Virus record (IMG/VR): IMGVR_UViG_3300045988_081670
Source: a virus
Length of the DNA stretch: 64,000 bases
Strand: one strand, 5' to 3'
The notes under the pieces were generated by a model, which was not told the DNA's origin, searched no databases, and was given only the letters and a program-made list of their open reading frames with translations. The position numbers and the translations under genes were made by a program. Shown here in pieces: positions 37,391-40,764 of the stretch (position 1 is its first letter; each line of letters opens with the position of its first letter).

Positions 37391-38290
37391 CTAACGAGTT
37401 GGTATATTCCACTTTCTTTTTCGTTCCCTATCCCTAGGATGAGCTTGGGTAAAACTTCCGAAGAATTGTCTTTCCACTAAATGTAAATACATACTCTCAA
37501 AACTACCATACGGAGCTAGTCTTTTACAATAGTCTTTACCATTACCCTTATATTCAGCACTATTGAAAGTCAAAGCAGGAAGTATATCTTCTAACTCAGG
37601 CTCAATAGTTTTACATACCAGATAAAGATTATAGATAGTATCTGGATTAAGAGGATAGCCTCCTAAATGAATATGCAGAGAGCATTCCTTATTGAAATCA
37701 GTATACTCTTTAAGTGTCTCTACCTGTTGATGAAGGAGAGAAAGTCCCTCTCCTCCTTTTAATACAACGGTAGAATACTCTGGACCAGTAATAGATCCAT
37801 CCCTTAATGGGATTAATCCATCTCGATAACATACGTCCTCAGGCACATATCCTTGGGATGTTTCGAACTCCAGTCCAAAAGTGTACTTTAAATATTTTGC
37901 TAAGGGGTACAAAGTTTCATGGTCTTTAATTTCTTGCTTTCCATTAAAAGCATTGAAATTCTCCACAGCTTCATACTTTCTAGCAAGAATATAAGGAAAA
38001 TCTCCAGAACCTTTTATAAGCTGCTCTGTAAGTATAAAATCTTCATCGTAATGGATAGGAGAAAAGTATACCCCCTTTCTCTTACTATATAGGAGTTTTC
38101 CCTTATATAGATTTAAATCCGTTTCAAAGTAATCACTATACCCTTCAGAGCTAGCTATAAGAACTTTAACAATCCTATCAGGTTTACTAGTATATCCAAA
38201 GATAATTTGCTTTGGGAGTTGCTGGATAACAATCTTTGTACAATTTCGAGAGCTCATCCATCTTTTAGTTAATTCGTCAAAAACTTGCAT
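37391..38290 (-). CDS. amidoligase (GCS2/YbdK-like carboxylate-amine ligase family)
   Basis: Motifs TFGLEFETSQG (ExE) and ECSLHIHLGG (HxH) match the Amidoligase_2 / glutamate-cysteine-ligase-2 fold. Confidence 0.5.
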   Translation of the reverse strand: MQVFDELTKRWMSSRNCTKIVIQQLPKQIIFGYTSKPDRIVKVLIASSEGYSDYFETDLNLYKGKLLYSKRKGVYFSPIHYDEDFILTEQLIKGSGDFPYILARKYEAVENFNAFNGKQEIKDHETLYPLAKYLKYTFGLEFETSQGYVPEDVCYRDGLIPLRDGSITGPEYSTVVLKGGEGLSLLHQQVETLKEYTDFNKECSLHIHLGGYPLNPDTIYNLYLVCKTIEPELEDILPALTFNSAEYKGNGKDYCKRLAPYGSFESMYLHLVERQFFGSFTQAHPRDRERKRKWNIPTR

Positions 38291-39618
38291 TCTTCCCTAA
38301 TTGTTTTAAAATTAATATCCAATTTAGCTTCCTCCAGAGAACTAAATGCCTCATCAGAACTCCTACCATATTTAGTAGTTCTTCTGTTTCCAGCAAAAAA
38401 TTCTGTAGAAGAAGTCGATGTAATCATGTTTAGTGTTCCTGTAAAAGGAACTCTCTTAGTTGGAGATGTAGCCCGATACCACACATCCTTATCACAATAT
38501 ACACCATCAACACTCAAATACCTTATAAGGTTCCTAAACTTCTTATTAAACTCTTTATCTTCAAGCTTACTCTCCTTCTTAAGGACGGCAAGAAATCGAA
38601 AACAAGCAACACTCTTAAGAGCAACTCCATTCCAAAAGAATATCTCTTTATATATTGACTTTCTTTTAGGAGCTTCATCTAACATCATTCCATACTTATT
38701 AAGTAGTACCCGTCCTTGGAGCTTTTTACCTCTTCCATTATAAGTATTGTCTACTTGATTAGTTGAAATAAAATTGTCATAAAGATTGCCATCACTTTCT
38801 TCCAGTCCAAATTCTCCCCAATATTTTCCCAAATATTTAGATGGAGTTATATACAGGGTTTCTTTCTTTTGATAAGCATTAGCTCTAGAAACTTCCTCAA
38901 CAGCAACTAAGTCCTTACCATTAAACTCAAAGAGGCAATTTGGATTTAAAATCCAAGTTGTGAGCTTATGTCTAAGAGACATTAAATAAGAAGCAATAGA
39001 AGAAAAAATCAATTCTCCCTTTATAGGATCGACACAGAAGTATAACGGACGTTCATCCGTTTCCTTCTTATCCCACTTGTCTTTCTTAGAGGCTCCTTTA
39101 AAGAGTAAAATCTTTGGTTTTCCACCACGGTAATCTGCAATTGCAAACACTGCTCCTCCGTTATACTCACTAAGTACTTTATATCCAGAATGATAGAAAA
39201 TTCTAGCCATTACCTGAGAATCAGTCATACCAGTGATATCAATATCTGGTATATATTTTTTAGCTAACTCCTTGTAATTGTAGATAGTTCCATTATGTAT
39301 AAGGACATATTCTACCTTTCCATTGGCATTAGTGAGTACCACAGGTTGAGCAGTTGTTTCATTAATAACACCAACAGACGCTTTTCTGCAATGACCAAAA
39401 GCTACCGAACTCATTTTAAGCTCATTAAGGAACTTATTGTCTTGGAAAAAGCACTGGAACCACTTATCATCGCCTTTTGCTCCATACTCGTAGTGTCCAT
39501 CAATAAAATAGCCACAGGAGTCACCGCCTCTACTGTCATTAGCAATACCTAATGTACAGAAAGTTGGAAAGTCAAAAGACCTCATGCTCTTTGTAACGAT
39601 GCCAAATATTCCACACAT
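38269..39618 (-). CDS. class-II (Ntn) glutamine amidotransferase
   Basis: N-terminal MCGIFGIV with catalytic Cys2, the hallmark of Ntn-type GATase (AsnB/GlmS/PurF-like). Confidence 0.7.
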   Translation of the reverse strand: MCGIFGIVTKSMRSFDFPTFCTLGIANDSRGGDSCGYFIDGHYEYGAKGDDKWFQCFFQDNKFLNELKMSSVAFGHCRKASVGVINETTAQPVVLTNANGKVEYVLIHNGTIYNYKELAKKYIPDIDITGMTDSQVMARIFYHSGYKVLSEYNGGAVFAIADYRGGKPKILLFKGASKKDKWDKKETDERPLYFCVDPIKGELIFSSIASYLMSLRHKLTTWILNPNCLFEFNGKDLVAVEEVSRANAYQKKETLYITPSKYLGKYWGEFGLEESDGNLYDNFISTNQVDNTYNGRGKKLQGRVLLNKYGMMLDEAPKRKSIYKEIFFWNGVALKSVACFRFLAVLKKESKLEDKEFNKKFRNLIRYLSVDGVYCDKDVWYRATSPTKRVPFTGTLNMITSTSSTEFFAGNRRTTKYGRSSDEAFSSLEEAKLDINFKTIREECKFLTN

Positions 39619-39620
39619 AA

Positions 39621-40412
39621 TTATGCTAAATTATAACGGGTTATTAACTGTTTAGCTAATTCAACATCACTACTATTAATAGCTTCTTGAACTAAATCTA
39701 TACTTGGAAGAGCATAGCCAATCCGATAAGCTCTTATAACCTTCTGTAATTGCTTCCAGATGAAGGATAACTTAGAAGGGGAACTCATCATTGCACTGCT
39801 AAGAACTCGATACTCAACACCGTAGTCAGTTAGACGGAAACAGCCAGCTTTACCATAGAGAGAGCGACGTTTCTTATCTTTATCCTTAACGACAGAAGGA
39901 ATACCCAAAAAGGCATCCATATACTTTACAAGAGCAAGACTAGTATCTACGTTAGGATTTTCATATCCAATATGAATGTGAAAACCAGCTGAGCGAAGAT
40001 TAGTTGATGTACCCTTAGGTTTAGGATTTGCCTTCATTGTATAGGCATTATAATCAACATCACATCCGAAAAGCTTAGCTTGGTCACTCTGCAATTCAGA
40101 TTTAGGTACGGTCTGGGAGGCTATACATTTGATACCAAGGTCGGGATTTTTACTCTTAACAAACTTATCTATATACTCCTGCATATAAACAATGTTGTTG
40201 ACAAAGTTTATTTCATCCTTAACAGGAGGAATGTTAAATTCTGCAAGAATATTATCAGTCTCAAGTCCAAAACCCTCTGGCATATCATCGGATCTCCATG
40301 GATTGCCTTTTTCACCAGGTATTAATCCAACGGCAGACACCACTTTCTTTGTTTTTTCATTAATGATAAACAGTTCTGGGTCTGCACCAATAGTTACATT
40401 ACTCAATTCCAT
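39621..40412 (-). CDS. amidoligase paralog (GCS2/YbdK-like)
   Basis: N-terminal TIGADPELFIIN (compare YbdK TLGIELEL) and central GFHIHIGYEN. Confidence 0.5.
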   Translation of the reverse strand: MELSNVTIGADPELFIINEKTKKVVSAVGLIPGEKGNPWRSDDMPEGFGLETDNILAEFNIPPVKDEINFVNNIVYMQEYIDKFVKSKNPDLGIKCIASQTVPKSELQSDQAKLFGCDVDYNAYTMKANPKPKGTSTNLRSAGFHIHIGYENPNVDTSLALVKYMDAFLGIPSVVKDKDKKRRSLYGKAGCFRLTDYGVEYRVLSSAMMSSPSKLSFIWKQLQKVIRAYRIGYALPSIDLVQEAINSSDVELAKQLITRYNLA

Positions 40413-40764
40413 CTACAAGAGTTTTTACGAGGTTATTAATCATTTTAGCAACTGGATAATCCGGAATCATTTCGGGATGACCTTGTACTGCAAGACACTT
40501 AGGCAATCCATCCTTATGATATAAAACGATTTCTGGTTCCTTTCCAAAAATAACGTCAGGATCTATTCCATCCCCTTCATAATAGTCACTCTCTACATCG
40601 GAGGATTTAAATAGGATGTCATAATCATCCTTATTAAGATCAAATGGATACTGCATCTGATGGTGAGTAGAAGTTATTTGATAAATCTTATCTCCATCAG
40701 TTATCCCATGAGTAAATCCAGTAGCATGACCCGTTACATTTTGAACAAGCTTGCCACCATTCAT
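40399..40764 (-). CDS. small protein with GATase1-like C-terminal motif (VQGHPE)
   Basis: 121 aa. LAVQGHPEM resembles the His/Glu half of a class-I glutaminase catalytic triad. A divergent promoter-like AT-rich gap separates it from 40960..41691. Confidence 0.3.
   Translation of the reverse strand: MNGGKLVQNVTGHATGFTHGITDGDKIYQITSTHHQMQYPFDLNKDDYDILFKSSDVESDYYEGDGIDPDVIFGKEPEIVLYHKDGLPKCLAVQGHPEMIPDYPVAKMINNLVKTLVDGIE

What the first reader, a model, noticed from the sequence alone, without database searches (positions are those of the whole stretch)
37391..40764. Amidoligase x2, Ntn glutamine amidotransferase and a GATase1-like small protein: candidate peptide or metabolite ligation system
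There are two paralogous proteins with YbdK/GCS2-type amidoligase motifs (GxExE near the N-terminus, HxH centrally). Between them is a protein starting MCGIFG (Ntn class-II glutaminase), and upstream a 121-aa protein ending VQGHPE. This gene neighbourhood matches the amidoligase plus GAT-II systems predicted to make gamma-glutamyl or peptide conjugates, or to tag proteins. Such systems have been noted in some phages but, as far as I know, never characterised biochemically. In a nucleotide-metabolism-rich early region it might alternatively act in DNA or nucleotide hypermodification.
Basis: partly seen in the sequence, partly recalled or inferred. Interest (0 to 1): 0.6.

Follow-up and report, generated by a model that had tools for sequence, protein, structure and literature searches.

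The report
Intron-split phage amidoligase–amidotransferase operon
A gut phage related to crAss-like phages carries the long-predicted but never biochemically tested "phiEco32-type" set of amide-bond-forming enzymes, and two of its four enzyme genes only become whole after self-splicing introns are removed; one intron carries its homing nuclease gene backwards, overlapping the ribozyme.

Summary
The locus (36587-42798, minus strand) is a tightly coupled operon. It encodes an unknown crAss-specific protein, a class-I GATase/Peptidase_C26, a COOH-NH2 ligase type 2, an Ntn (class-II) glutamine amidotransferase with a private C-terminal domain, and an Amidoligase_2.

The "121-aa VQGHPE protein" is exon 2 of the GATase. 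The "299-aa amidoligase" is exon 1 of a 410-aa protein. Group I introns interrupt both genes (41793..40782 and 37393..36923). The predicted junctions (GICRG|SQFLC and NIPTR|YYWCNF) are identical to uninterrupted alleles in related phage contigs.

The MCGIFG protein is not an asparagine synthetase. The cassette belongs to the known, still uncharacterised phiEco32/LUZ24/crAss "putative peptidoglycan-modification" amidoligase module. Here it lacks the ATP-grasp and GGCT genes found in other lineages.

The most likely chemistry is ATP-dependent carboxylate-amine ligation, glutamine-dependent amidation and gamma-glutamyl hydrolysis on a small peptide-like acceptor. The target is unknown, and nothing supports DNA hypermodification.

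Unexpectedly, the GATase intron belongs to a conserved family with an antisense HNH gene that overlaps the ribozyme core.

The parts
42037..42798 (-). G_253: 253-aa protein of unknown function. It is a crAss-specific companion gene of the cassette. Its stop codon overlaps the GATase1 start (ATGA).
41794..42040 (-). GATase1/Peptidase_C26 exon 1 (codons 1-82 plus 1 nt). It carries the nucleophile Cys80 in GICRG.
   Evidence: Peptidase_C26 E 2.4e-9 alone. Matches phrog_7218 profile positions 2-89. After splicing, Peptidase_C26 E 6.7e-16 and GATase E 2.3e-6.
40782..41793 (-). Group I intron 2 (1012 nt) in the GATase1 gene. The 5' splice site follows GGGU (U.G pair in P1: CGUGGGU/GCUCACG). The 3' end is ...AAAAUG (omega-G).
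   Evidence: Partial Rfam RF00028 hit at 41625-41771: 39 bits, E 2e-6, below the gathering score of 50. P8 (UCAUUU/AAAUGA), P7' (GAUAUAGUC) and P9 were read from the sequence. Six-member family alignment: 95% of cells paired, 33 of 71 pairs show compensatory changes, and 0 of 500 shuffles reach this. Intron-less alleles have exactly GICRGSQFLCVMNGG.
40960..41691 (+). HNH homing-endonuclease gene (243 aa) encoded antisense inside the P8 loop of intron 2. Its last ~22 codons overlap the intron's P3' strand and P7.1/7.2-like stem. Its TAG stop is the complement of CUA in P7 (GACUAG).
   Evidence: phrog_3322 endonuclease E 1.3e-27 and phrog_3118 HNH E 2.5e-12. Homologues in L020-L024 keep the same C-terminus (..GNITDIF..LSLDS*) and the same antisense intron core just past their stop codon.
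40399..40781 (-). GATase1/Peptidase_C26 exon 2. It carries His184 and Glu186 (GHPE).
   Evidence: Matches phrog_7218 profile positions 95-195. The spliced 209-aa protein aligns 1-208 without gaps to L003/L004/L005/L008.
39621..40412 (-). COOH-NH2 ligase type 2 (263 aa; glutamine-synthetase/GCS2-like carboxylate-amine ligase). Its start overlaps the GATase1 stop by 14 nt.
   Evidence: PF14395 E 1.9e-11. phrog_3815 E 1e-66. Homologues in 318 phage records, including phiEco32 (33% identity, E 5e-29). Invariant residues G9, D11, P12, E13, D53, N54, E58, R140, H147, E200 and R202 hold across sequences down to 30% identity.
38269..39618 (-). Class-II (Ntn) glutamine amidotransferase domain (residues 1-250) plus a family-specific C-terminal domain (280-449). 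Total 449 aa.
37394..38290 (-). Amidoligase_2 exon 1 (codons 1-299; GLEFE at 139, HIH at 206). Its start overlaps the stop of the GAT-II gene by 22 nt.
   Evidence: Alone it scores 20.7 bits, below the cutoff of 22. Spliced, it scores 27.5 bits, E 3.5e-6, matching profile positions 82-238.
36923..37393 (-). Group I intron 1 (471 nt) in the amidoligase gene. The 5' splice site follows CUCGU (U.G pair in P1). The 3' end is ..CAUUUG.
   Evidence: Rfam RF00028: 50.8 bits (gathering score 50), E 5.9e-10, full-length model match. Fold z-score -7.9. Alleles at the same site: L012 without an ORF (88 bits) and L010 with a sense-strand HNH gene. Intron-less alleles read NIPTRYYWCNFINAL.
36979..37221 (-). 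80-aa ORF inside intron 1, function unknown. It starts in a ~190-nt insert that the L012 allele lacks, reads through P3'/P8, and stops in P7'.
   Evidence: No family hit. The insert is visible in the three-allele alignment.
36587..36922 (-). Amidoligase_2 exon 2 (codons 300-410). It carries the E318-F-R320 motif.
   Evidence: tblastn of the spliced protein spans the junction in one piece in crAss phage cr108_1 (query 66-373, E 6e-60). It aligns 1-410 without gaps in L003-L008.

Best explanation
The locus is one translationally coupled operon, in the order G_253, GATase1/C26, COOH-NH2 ligase, GAT-II, Amidoligase_2. It sits in a large phage of Bacteroidota that is distantly related to crAss-like phages. 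It is a member of the phiEco32/LUZ24/crAss 'amidoligase cassette'.

Shown:
- Two genes must be repaired at RNA level by group I intron splicing before any complete enzyme exists. In the GATase, Cys80 is in exon 1 and His184/Glu186 are in exon 2. In the amidoligase, GLEFE and HIH are in exon 1 and EFR is in exon 2.
- After splicing, all four enzymes keep their catalytic residues.

Inferred mechanism:
1. The two glutamine-synthetase-fold ligases each activate a carboxylate with ATP, as an acyl-phosphate, and join it to an amine.
2. The Ntn amidotransferase is translationally coupled to the Amidoligase_2. It hydrolyses glutamine and hands ammonia to a ligase, so that one free carboxylate becomes an amide. 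This would be a two-subunit amidotransferase, analogous to MurT/GatD or AsnB.
3. The C26-type GATase either supplies ammonia to the adjacent COOH-NH2 ligase or, more likely, removes a gamma-glutamyl group. Its nearest named relatives are gamma-glutamyl amide hydrolases, and GGCT takes its place in other phages.

The product would be a small amidated, gamma-glutamyl-type peptide or amino-acid conjugate, or that modification placed on a peptide-like acceptor. The acceptor is not known.
For: - Gene structure and splicing.
- Family assignments.
- Catalytic residues conserved down to 30% identity.
- Coupled genes, read from the ORF coordinates and the sequence: overlaps of 4, 14 and 22 nt, and one 2-nt spacer.
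- The same core genes recur in Steigviridae (cr108_1, phi14:2), in 17 IMG/VR loci, in phiEco32-like and LUZ24-like podoviruses (PMC3890496), and with added ATP-grasp, GNAT and a second C26 in L015 and L017.
- The best NCBIfam names for the GATase1 are gamma-glutamyl-CDP-amidate hydrolase and PuuD.
Against: - No enzyme of this cassette has been assayed. All chemistry is inferred from fold and family.
- The NCBIfam hits are far below their cutoffs (24 bits against 250).
- The pairing 'glutaminase next to ligase' does not hold in every lineage. phi14:2 and L017 lack a GATase1, and LUZ24-like phages have the order C-x-A-B.
- Splicing is predicted, not observed.
- Intron 2 scores below the Rfam gathering threshold.
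- G_253 and the C-terminal domain of the GAT-II have no assignable function, so a key step may be missing.
Confidence: 0.6

Rival explanations
1. This is the literature's specific version of the idea. The cassette remodels the peptide stem of host peptidoglycan (unusual gamma-glutamyl or amide linkages and amidation) so that the infected cell excludes superinfecting phages.
For: - This is the standing hypothesis (Iyer 2009 and Hardies 2013, as reported in PMC5498523, PMC10580990 and PMC11945000).
- Known peptidoglycan amidation uses the same logic: a glutaminase plus an ATP-dependent ligase, as in MurT/GatD (PMC3267633 and PMC5871853, listed).
- An SPFH/Band_7 gene (33603-35411) and a candidate NfeD-like membrane protein (35429-35950, no family hit) lie next to the cassette here. 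An SPFH gene also lies next to it in LUZ24-like phage Clew-3.
- An OmpA-like peptidoglycan-binding lipoprotein lies nearby (31776-32777).
Against: - It has never been tested.
- Amidoligase and GATase genes are also reported in viruses of Poseidoniales archaea, which lack murein (PMC11706807).
- No Mur-ligase-like, transpeptidase or lipid-II-related gene is in the operon.
- No cassette protein has a signal peptide or a membrane segment on inspection of the translations.
Confidence: 0.2
2. Protein tagging or tailing. The ligases add glutamate- or glutamine-type residues, or a small peptide, to a phage or host protein. This would resemble RimK acting on ribosomal protein S6, or PafA/Dop pupylation, with the amidohydrolases acting as deamidase or trimming enzymes.
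For: - Related cassettes carry RimK-like ATP-grasp genes (cr108_1 gp028, phi14:2 g038, L017).
- PafA/Dop belong to the same carboxylate-amine ligase superfamily (background knowledge).
- The unassigned, operon-coupled G_253 could be a substrate or an adaptor.
Against: - This phage's cassette has no ATP-grasp gene.
- No Pup-like small protein and no conserved C-terminal Glu/Gln candidate was identified.
- G_253 shows no similarity to any known tag.
Confidence: 0.12
3. DNA or nucleotide hypermodification. The ligases and amidotransferases decorate a modified base, for example extending a 5-hmdU-derived or amino-acid-bearing base.
For: - Genes with amidoligase and amidotransferase Pfam matches co-occur with 5-HMUDK/aGPT-Pplase genes in some viral contigs, with function unknown (PMC8989533).
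- The cassette lies in the replication and nucleotide-metabolism module: NrdD, DnaB-like helicase, SNF2-type helicase, AAA_24. It lies beside UDG in cr108_1 and phi14:2.
Against: - No dUMP/dCMP hydroxymethylase, 5-HMUDK, aGPT-Pplase, TET/JBP or PLP/radical-SAM partner was found among the window ORFs scanned or in the related loci examined.
- The scan did not cover every ORF or the rest of the genome.
Confidence: 0.08
4. The split genes are decaying pseudogenes, or the halves work as separate polypeptides without splicing. In that case the cassette is not functional as described.
For: - Intron 2 is below the Rfam gathering score (39 against 50 bits).
- Splicing was not observed.
- Phages of this group are heavily invaded by mobile elements (PMC7886860).
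Against: - Exon sequences are 84-90% identical to uninterrupted alleles, with no frameshift or internal stop.
- The junctions are exact.
- Both ribozyme cores are complete. Intron 2's family shows strong covariation, and intron 1 folds far better than shuffled sequence.
- The exon-2 ORFs begin at a chance internal Met and a TTG, with stop codons just upstream.
Confidence: 0.04
5. The MCGIFG protein is a conventional asparagine synthetase and the neighbouring genes are unrelated.
Against: - Only the glutaminase domain matches, at 60 bits against a cutoff of 267.
- Residues 280-449 match no synthetase, PRTase or SIS domain. They occur only in this protein family.
- The neighbours are conserved across phage lineages.
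Confidence: 0.01

Closest known systems
phiEco32 / LUZ24 / RIO-1-type phage 'putative peptidoglycan modification module' (Iyer et al. 2009; Hardies et al. 2013, as cited in PMC5498523, PMC11945000 and PMC3890496)
   Same: It has a COOH-NH2 ligase type 2 (33% identical to the phiEco32 protein), an Amidoligase_2 and a class-II GAT. It lies in the early/replication module. Its function is known only as a prediction.
   Different: This cassette has no ATP-grasp and no GGCT gene. It has a C26-type GATase1 and the crAss-specific G_253 instead. The gene order is C-B-A rather than C-x-A-B. [quoted passage not shown]
Cassettes of Crassvirales phages cr108_1 (gp028-gp034) and Cellulophaga phage phi14:2 (g037-g041)
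   Same: These are the closest annotated relatives. Identities to cr108_1 are GATase1 43%, C 49%, B 41% and A 37%. The order GATase1-C-B-A is the same, and G-family genes sit upstream.
   Different: Those phages add a RimK-like ATP-grasp gene, and phi14:2 adds GGCT. Their genes are uninterrupted, and UDG lies downstream rather than SPFH and a candidate NfeD-like gene.
Gamma-glutamylation pathways that pair a GS-fold ligase with a C26 hydrolase (E. coli PuuA/PuuD), and Ntn gamma-glutamyl amidohydrolases such as EgtC
   Same: The same two enzyme folds work together: ATP-dependent gamma-glutamyl-amine ligation, followed by hydrolysis of the gamma-glutamyl amide. PuuD and EgtC appear among the weak or fold-level matches.
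   Different: Sequence similarity is marginal. The phage cassette has no oxidase or dehydrogenase steps, and its substrates are unknown.
Two-component or fused glutamine-dependent carboxylate amidation: MurT/GatD, AsnB/LtsA, and the NAGGN pathway amidotransferase
   Same: The logic is the same: a glutaminase plus an ATP-dependent carboxylate-activating enzyme. The 'trio' NAGGN amidotransferase model hits the GAT-II at E 6.6e-10. L015's cassette also has GNAT and ATP-grasp genes, as Ngg does.
   Different: The synthetase partners here have the GS/GCS2 fold, not the Mur-ligase or Asn-synthetase fold. No channelling complex has been shown.
Phage group I introns with homing endonucleases (T4 td/nrdB/sunY, Twort, LUZ24 DNA polymerase), and the antisense homing-endonuclease gene I-DirII of Didymium nuclear rDNA (PMC3073962)
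   Same: These are self-splicing introns inserted at codons for conserved catalytic motifs. Intron-plus and intron-minus alleles coexist in a population. The endonuclease cargo is HNH or LAGLIDADG.
   Different: In intron 2 the HNH gene is on the opposite strand and overlaps the ribozyme core. Within the papers I could search, antisense homing-endonuclease genes were described only for eukaryotic nuclear rDNA and mitochondrial introns.

Membership tests
phiEco32-type phage amidoligase cassette | COOH-NH2 ligase type 2 (PF14395) with G-x-DPE, HxH and E-x-R motifs | tested here: met
   PF14395 at 44 bits, above the cutoff of 25. phrog_3815 E 1e-66. 33% identical to the phiEco32 protein over 97% of its length. 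The motifs are invariant.
phiEco32-type phage amidoligase cassette | A second GS-fold ligase of the Amidoligase_2 family (PF12224) | tested here: met
   Met only after in-silico splicing: 27.5 bits, above the cutoff of 22. Unspliced it scores 20.7 bits.
phiEco32-type phage amidoligase cassette | Class-II (Ntn) glutamine amidotransferase with an N-terminal Cys | tested here: met
phiEco32-type phage amidoligase cassette | ATP-grasp (RimK-like) ligase in the cluster | tested here: not met
   No ATP-grasp hit in any ORF from 35429 to 43848. It is present in cr108_1, phi14:2, L015 and L017.
phiEco32-type phage amidoligase cassette | Gamma-glutamyl cyclotransferase (GGCT/AIG2) | tested here: not met
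   None found in the window ORFs scanned. A C26-type GATase1 is present instead.
Group I intron (RF00028), intron 1 | Covariance-model score at or above the gathering score, U.G at the 5' splice site, terminal G, and in-frame exon ligation | tested here: met
   50.8 bits against a gathering score of 50, with a full-length model match. Splice sites were read from the sequence. The junction is identical to intron-less alleles. Self-splicing itself was not tested.
Group I intron (RF00028), intron 2 | Covariance-model score at or above the gathering score | tested here: not met
   39 bits, below 50. Only model positions 47-158 match, because the 760-nt P8 loop breaks the alignment. Other evidence supports membership: P1 with a U.G pair, P3-P9, omega-G, 33 of 71 covarying pairs in six homologues, and an exact junction.
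Class-I glutamine amidotransferase / Peptidase_C26 | Cys-His-Glu triad in one polypeptide | tested here: met
   Cys80 (exon 1) and His184/Glu186 (exon 2) in the spliced 209-aa protein. Peptidase_C26 at 59 bits, above the cutoff of 20.5.
Asparagine synthetase (AsnB) | C-terminal Asn_synthase (PP-loop ATPase) domain | tested here: not met
Thymidine hypermodification cluster (Lee et al., PMC8989533) | 5-HMUDK kinase, aGPT-Pplase and a dUMP hydroxymethylase or TET/JBP near the amidoligase genes | tested here: inconclusive
   None found among about 30 window ORFs or in the relatives' flanks that were scanned. Not all ORFs were scanned, and the remaining roughly 110 kb of the genome was not examined.

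The most novel reading that the evidence does not exclude
The cassette, including the unassigned G_253 protein and the private C-terminal domain of the GAT-II, may install a covalent gamma-glutamyl/amide-type modification on a macromolecule (phage DNA or a phage or host protein), rather than make a small metabolite or alter the cell wall. That would be a new class of phage-encoded macromolecular modification built by GS-fold ligases.

Separately, and better supported, the GATase1 intron defines a phage group I intron family with a dual-coding arrangement. Its HNH endonuclease is encoded antisense and overlaps the ribozyme core. I did not find this described for phages.
Probability: 0.15. Interest if true: 0.8.

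Novelty: new member of a known kind. Interest (0 to 1): 0.45.

Why it matters
The amidoligase/amidotransferase cassette is in hundreds of sequenced phages: 318 records match the COOH-NH2 ligase alone. These include therapy-relevant Pseudomonas and E. coli phages and abundant gut crAss-like phages. After more than 15 years its product is still a guess.

This locus adds three things:
- It shows that the core set persists without the ATP-grasp and GGCT genes, which narrows the minimal chemistry.
- It identifies a crAss-specific companion gene.
- Naive ORF calling splits two of the enzymes, so surveys of this cassette in intron-rich phages will under-count or mis-annotate it.

The conserved antisense-HNH intron aimed at the GATase nucleophile codons is a clean natural case of an RNA structure and a protein-coding sequence constraining each other on opposite strands.

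Tried and rejected
- Iyer et al. 2009 (PMID 20023723 / PMC3268129) could not be retrieved. Its claims are cited only through later papers.
- megablast of the locus against GenBank phages found only a 55-nt intron-core match in two crAss-like phages.
- PDB sequence searches found nothing for either ligase.
- hhalign of the G_253 family against the COOH-NH2 ligase family was negative (probability 1%). 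I therefore dropped the idea that G_253 is a third, divergent ligase.
- An exact-match search for the intron-2 core in viral contigs found nothing.
- Rfam cmscan missed the intron in all five loci that carry homologues of the HNH gene with the intron core (L020-L024). The introns were found only by reading the DNA past the HNH stop codon.
- I first took the gene order C-B-A to be invariant. LUZ24-like phages have C-x-A-B (PMC3890496), so I withdrew that.
- Literature searches for any biochemical characterisation of the cassette returned only genome-annotation statements.

Full report
**What is at the locus**

All genes here are on the minus strand.
- 37391-38290, 299 aa;
- 38269-39618, 449 aa, starting MCGIFG;
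- 39621-40412, 263 aa;
- 40399-40764, 121 aa.

- an 85-aa ORF at 41783-42040 ending ..GICRGLRN;
- a plus-strand 243-aa ORF at 40960-41691;
- a 112-aa ORF at 36587-36925 containing TIEFRF.

Family scans support the domain calls.
- The 263-aa protein matches COOH-NH2_lig PF14395 (E 1.9e-11) and phrog_3815 (E 1e-66).
- The 449-aa protein matches GATase_6/7 (E 6.8e-15 and 1.4e-10).
- The 299-aa ORF gets only a sub-threshold Amidoligase_2 hit (20.7 bits against a cutoff of 22).
- The 121-aa and 85-aa ORFs match the two halves of one PHROG glutamine-amidotransferase profile (positions 95-195 and 2-89 of 203).

**Two group I introns**

Rfam finds a full-length group I intron at 36954-37403 on the minus strand (50.8 bits, gathering score 50, E 5.9e-10). 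It also finds a partial one at 41625-41771 on the minus strand (39 bits, E 2e-6).

Reading the sequence places intron 1 at 37393..36923 (471 nt).
- P1 is CUCGU.U/AGCGAG, with the U.G pair at the splice site.
- The intron ends in ..CAUUUG.

Intron 2 lies at 41793..40782 (1012 nt).
- P1 is CGUGGGU/GCUCACG.
- P8 (UCAUUU/AAAUGA) closes a roughly 760-nt loop.
- P7' is GAUAUAGUC.
- The intron ends in ..AAAAUG.

In-silico splicing gives two complete proteins.
- A 410-aa amidoligase with junction ..NIPTR|YYWCNF... It now passes the Pfam threshold (27.5 bits, profile positions 82-238).
- A 209-aa GATase1 with junction GICRG|SQFLC, where codon 83 is split T|CA. It matches Peptidase_C26 at E 6.7e-16 and GATase at E 2.3e-6.

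The decisive support comes from relatives.
- In IMG/VR contigs L003, L004, L005 and L008 (84-93% protein identity) both genes are uninterrupted. The spliced proteins align 1-410 and 1-208 without gaps. The junction peptides are letter-for-letter identical.
- cr108_1 gp034 also spans the amidoligase junction in one piece.
- Other relatives carry an intron at exactly the amidoligase site with different cargo. L012 has no ORF (Rfam 88 bits). L010 has a sense-strand HNH gene.
- The window's intron 1 differs from the L012 allele by a roughly 190-nt insert. That insert creates an 80-aa ORF of unknown function.
- Intron 1 folds far better than shuffled sequence (z = -7.9).

Splicing itself is predicted, not observed.

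**The enzymes**

After splicing, every enzyme has its catalytic residues.
- GATase1: Cys80 in exon 1, His184 and Glu186 in exon 2.
- COOH-NH2 ligase: G9-x-D11-P12-E13, D53-N54, E58, R140, H145-x-H147 and E200-x-R202. All but H145 (conserved in 90% or more) are invariant in sequences down to 30% identity.
- GAT-II: Cys2, R30-G-G-D33, N109-G110 and D133.
- Amidoligase_2: GLEFE at 139, HIH at 206 and, in exon 2, E318-F-R320.

The two ligases belong to the same superfamily but are not detectably similar pairwise (BLASTP E 0.11).

The GAT-II is not an asparagine synthetase.
- TIGR01536 scores 60 bits against a cutoff of 267.
- The C-terminal domain is found only at the C-terminus of proteins with this architecture: 45 clusters among 1.84 billion representatives.

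**The operon**

The genes are translationally coupled.
- The stop of the upstream 253-aa gene (42037-42798) overlaps the GATase1 start (ATGA).
- GATase1 and ligase C overlap by 14 nt.
- C and GAT-II are 2 nt apart.
- GAT-II and the amidoligase overlap by 22 nt.

The 253-aa protein has no family or fold match. It is nevertheless a conserved companion. Its 133 homologues all come from this clade. jackhmmer and Foldseek link it to cr108_1 gp029 and gp030, which sit in the same position.

**Comparative context**

The window comes from a large phage of Bacteroidota that is distantly related to crAss-like phages.
- Relatives are 150-175-kb viral contigs.
- The replicative helicase hits Crassvirales at about 25% identity.
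- Intron richness and a TAG-recoded block fit the large (145-192 kb), intron-rich group of crAss-like phages described in PMC7886860.

The same core set recurs widely.
- cr108_1 has ATP-grasp, G, G, GATase1, C, B, A, then UDG. Cellulophaga phage phi14:2 has GGCT, ATP-grasp, C, B, A, then UDG.
- More distant contigs add a second C26, a GNAT and an ATP-grasp gene.
- Ligase C has homologues in 318 GenBank phage records, including phiEco32 itself.
- LUZ24-like phages have the order C, x, Amidoligase_2, GAT-II, ATP-grasp, GGCT (PMC3890496).

The literature calls this a putative peptidoglycan-modification or superinfection-exclusion module, after Iyer 2009 and Hardies 2013. Papers as late as 2025 still treat it as a hypothesis (PMC5498523, PMC10580990, PMC11945000, PMC11706807). 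I found no biochemical study.

**How it most likely works (inferred)**

1. Two GS-fold ligases each form an acyl-phosphate and an amide bond.
2. The GAT-II, coupled to the Amidoligase_2, supplies glutamine-derived ammonia to amidate a carboxylate.
3. The C26-type GATase1 most likely hydrolyses a gamma-glutamyl amide. Its nearest named relatives are gamma-glutamyl-CDP-amidate hydrolase and PuuD (weak hits), and GGCT replaces it in phi14:2.

The net product would be a small amidated, gamma-glutamyl-type conjugate, or that modification on a peptide-like acceptor.

The target remains open.
- Cell envelope: an SPFH gene and a candidate NfeD-like gene lie next to the cassette here, and an SPFH gene lies next to it in a LUZ24-like phage. 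This hints at the envelope. The reported presence of such genes in archaeal viruses argues against a strictly murein target.
- DNA hypermodification: nothing found here supports it. No hydroxymethylase, kinase or pyrophosphorylase partners were seen in the ORFs scanned. Only a general co-occurrence has been noted elsewhere (PMC8989533).

**The unexpected part**

The 243-aa HNH endonuclease (phrog_3322, E 1.3e-27) is encoded on the opposite strand, inside the P8 loop of intron 2.
- Its last ~22 codons overlap the intron's P3' strand and its P7.1/7.2-like stem.
- Its TAG stop is the complement of CUA in P7.

This is a conserved arrangement, not an accident.
- Homologues of the HNH protein in five other viral contigs (L020-L024, 43-57% identity) end with the same ..GNITDIF..LSLDS*.
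- On the other strand they are followed by the same ribozyme core.
- All those whose flanks could be read sit in GATase1/C26 genes of the same cassette.
- They use two sites 10 nt apart, either side of the nucleophile Cys codon: after CRG| in the window, L020 and L021, and before |CRG in L022-L024.

I deleted the ORF from each intron and aligned the six copies.
- 95% of cells form pairs.
- 33 of 71 pairs have compensatory changes.
- 0 of 500 shuffles reach this. Slid controls give 36-46% pairing and 4-9 compensated pairs.
- The compensated pairs include helices inside the HNH coding overlap. For example, a His-to-Gln change in the protein is the C-G to G-C swap in P3.

Rfam missed all five of these introns.

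Across the clade a third cassette gene is also a target. In L012, ligase C is split just before its HxH motif by an element carrying a double-LAGLIDADG ORF. L020 has an insertion at about the same place.

In the papers I could search, antisense homing-endonuclease genes were described only for eukaryotic nuclear rDNA and mitochondrial introns. I cannot exclude an earlier report for phages.

**Verdict**

The cassette is a new member of a known, uncharacterised kind. It is a reduced variant that lacks the ATP-grasp and GGCT genes and has a crAss-specific companion gene. Its function remains inferred.

The intron findings correct the annotation. They also add a modestly novel mobile-element arrangement.

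Noticed in passing
window 40782-41793 (- strand) with 40960-41691 (+ strand); loci L020-L024: A conserved family of phage group I introns carries its HNH homing-endonuclease gene antisense in the P8 loop. The HNH C-terminal codons and stop codon overlap the ribozyme's P3', P7.1/7.2-like stem and P7. All six members sit at two sites 10 nt apart around the nucleophile Cys codon of cassette GATase1/C26 genes. Covariation is strong, and Rfam missed five of the six.
   Followed up: yes
window 36923-37393; L012 12174-12458; L010 ~11000-11845: Three allelic versions of the same intron sit at the same amidoligase site with different cargo. L012 has no ORF. The window has an 80-aa ORF that starts in a ~190-nt insert and ends inside P7'. 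L010 has a sense-strand HNH gene.
   Followed up: partly
L012 8429-9596 (ORF 8575-9447); L020 ~912-2016: In relatives, the COOH-NH2 ligase gene is split just before its HxH motif (RSAG|FHIHVGY) by a ~1.1-kb element. In L012 this element carries a 290-aa double-LAGLIDADG ORF. No Rfam intron hit was found there. Three of the four cassette enzymes are therefore mobile-element targets at catalytic-motif codons.
   Followed up: partly
window 27431-31634 (- strand): This 4.3-kb stretch has no standard ORF above 91 aa. If TAG is read as sense it gives three long ORFs of 475, 399 and 229 codons, with 8, 13 and 6 in-frame TAGs. It looks like a TAG-recoded gene block. None of the window's 17 tRNAs is a suppressor. 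All cassette genes end in TAA.
   Followed up: partly
window 33603-35411 and 35429-35950; Pseudomonas phage Clew-3 (L027 1500-2324): A 602-aa SPFH/Band_7 protein and a 173-aa candidate NfeD-like membrane protein (no family hit) lie immediately downstream of the cassette. They are syntenic with it across the clade. An SPFH gene also sits beside the cassette in an unrelated LUZ24-like podovirus.
   Followed up: partly
window 44210-44474, 45069-45178, 47313-49055: There is a weak tmRNA-like hit (23 bits); relatives have strong tmRNA hits at the syntenic place (up to 97 bits in L010). There is also a sub-threshold YrlA/Y-RNA-like hit (31.8 bits). A 580-aa protein nearby matches phrog_850 'RNA-binding protein' and DUF7788/DUF2828. 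This may be a phage Ro/Y-RNA-like module.
   Followed up: no
window 51060-51097 and 60957-61043: An abiF RNA motif lies above its gathering score (50.1 bits against 37), inside the tRNA cluster. A RAGATH-1 hammerhead-like match lies below threshold (43.9 bits against 56.3).
   Followed up: no
window 17116-18006 and 18124-19305: A GIY-YIG endonuclease ORF lies directly downstream of an SNF2/DEAD-type helicase ORF whose ResIII match comes in two stretches. This may be another gene invaded by a homing endonuclease.
   Followed up: no
window 25416-55726: There are 17 tRNA genes, all on the minus strand. Thirteen of them cluster between 49.4 and 55.7 kb.
   Followed up: no
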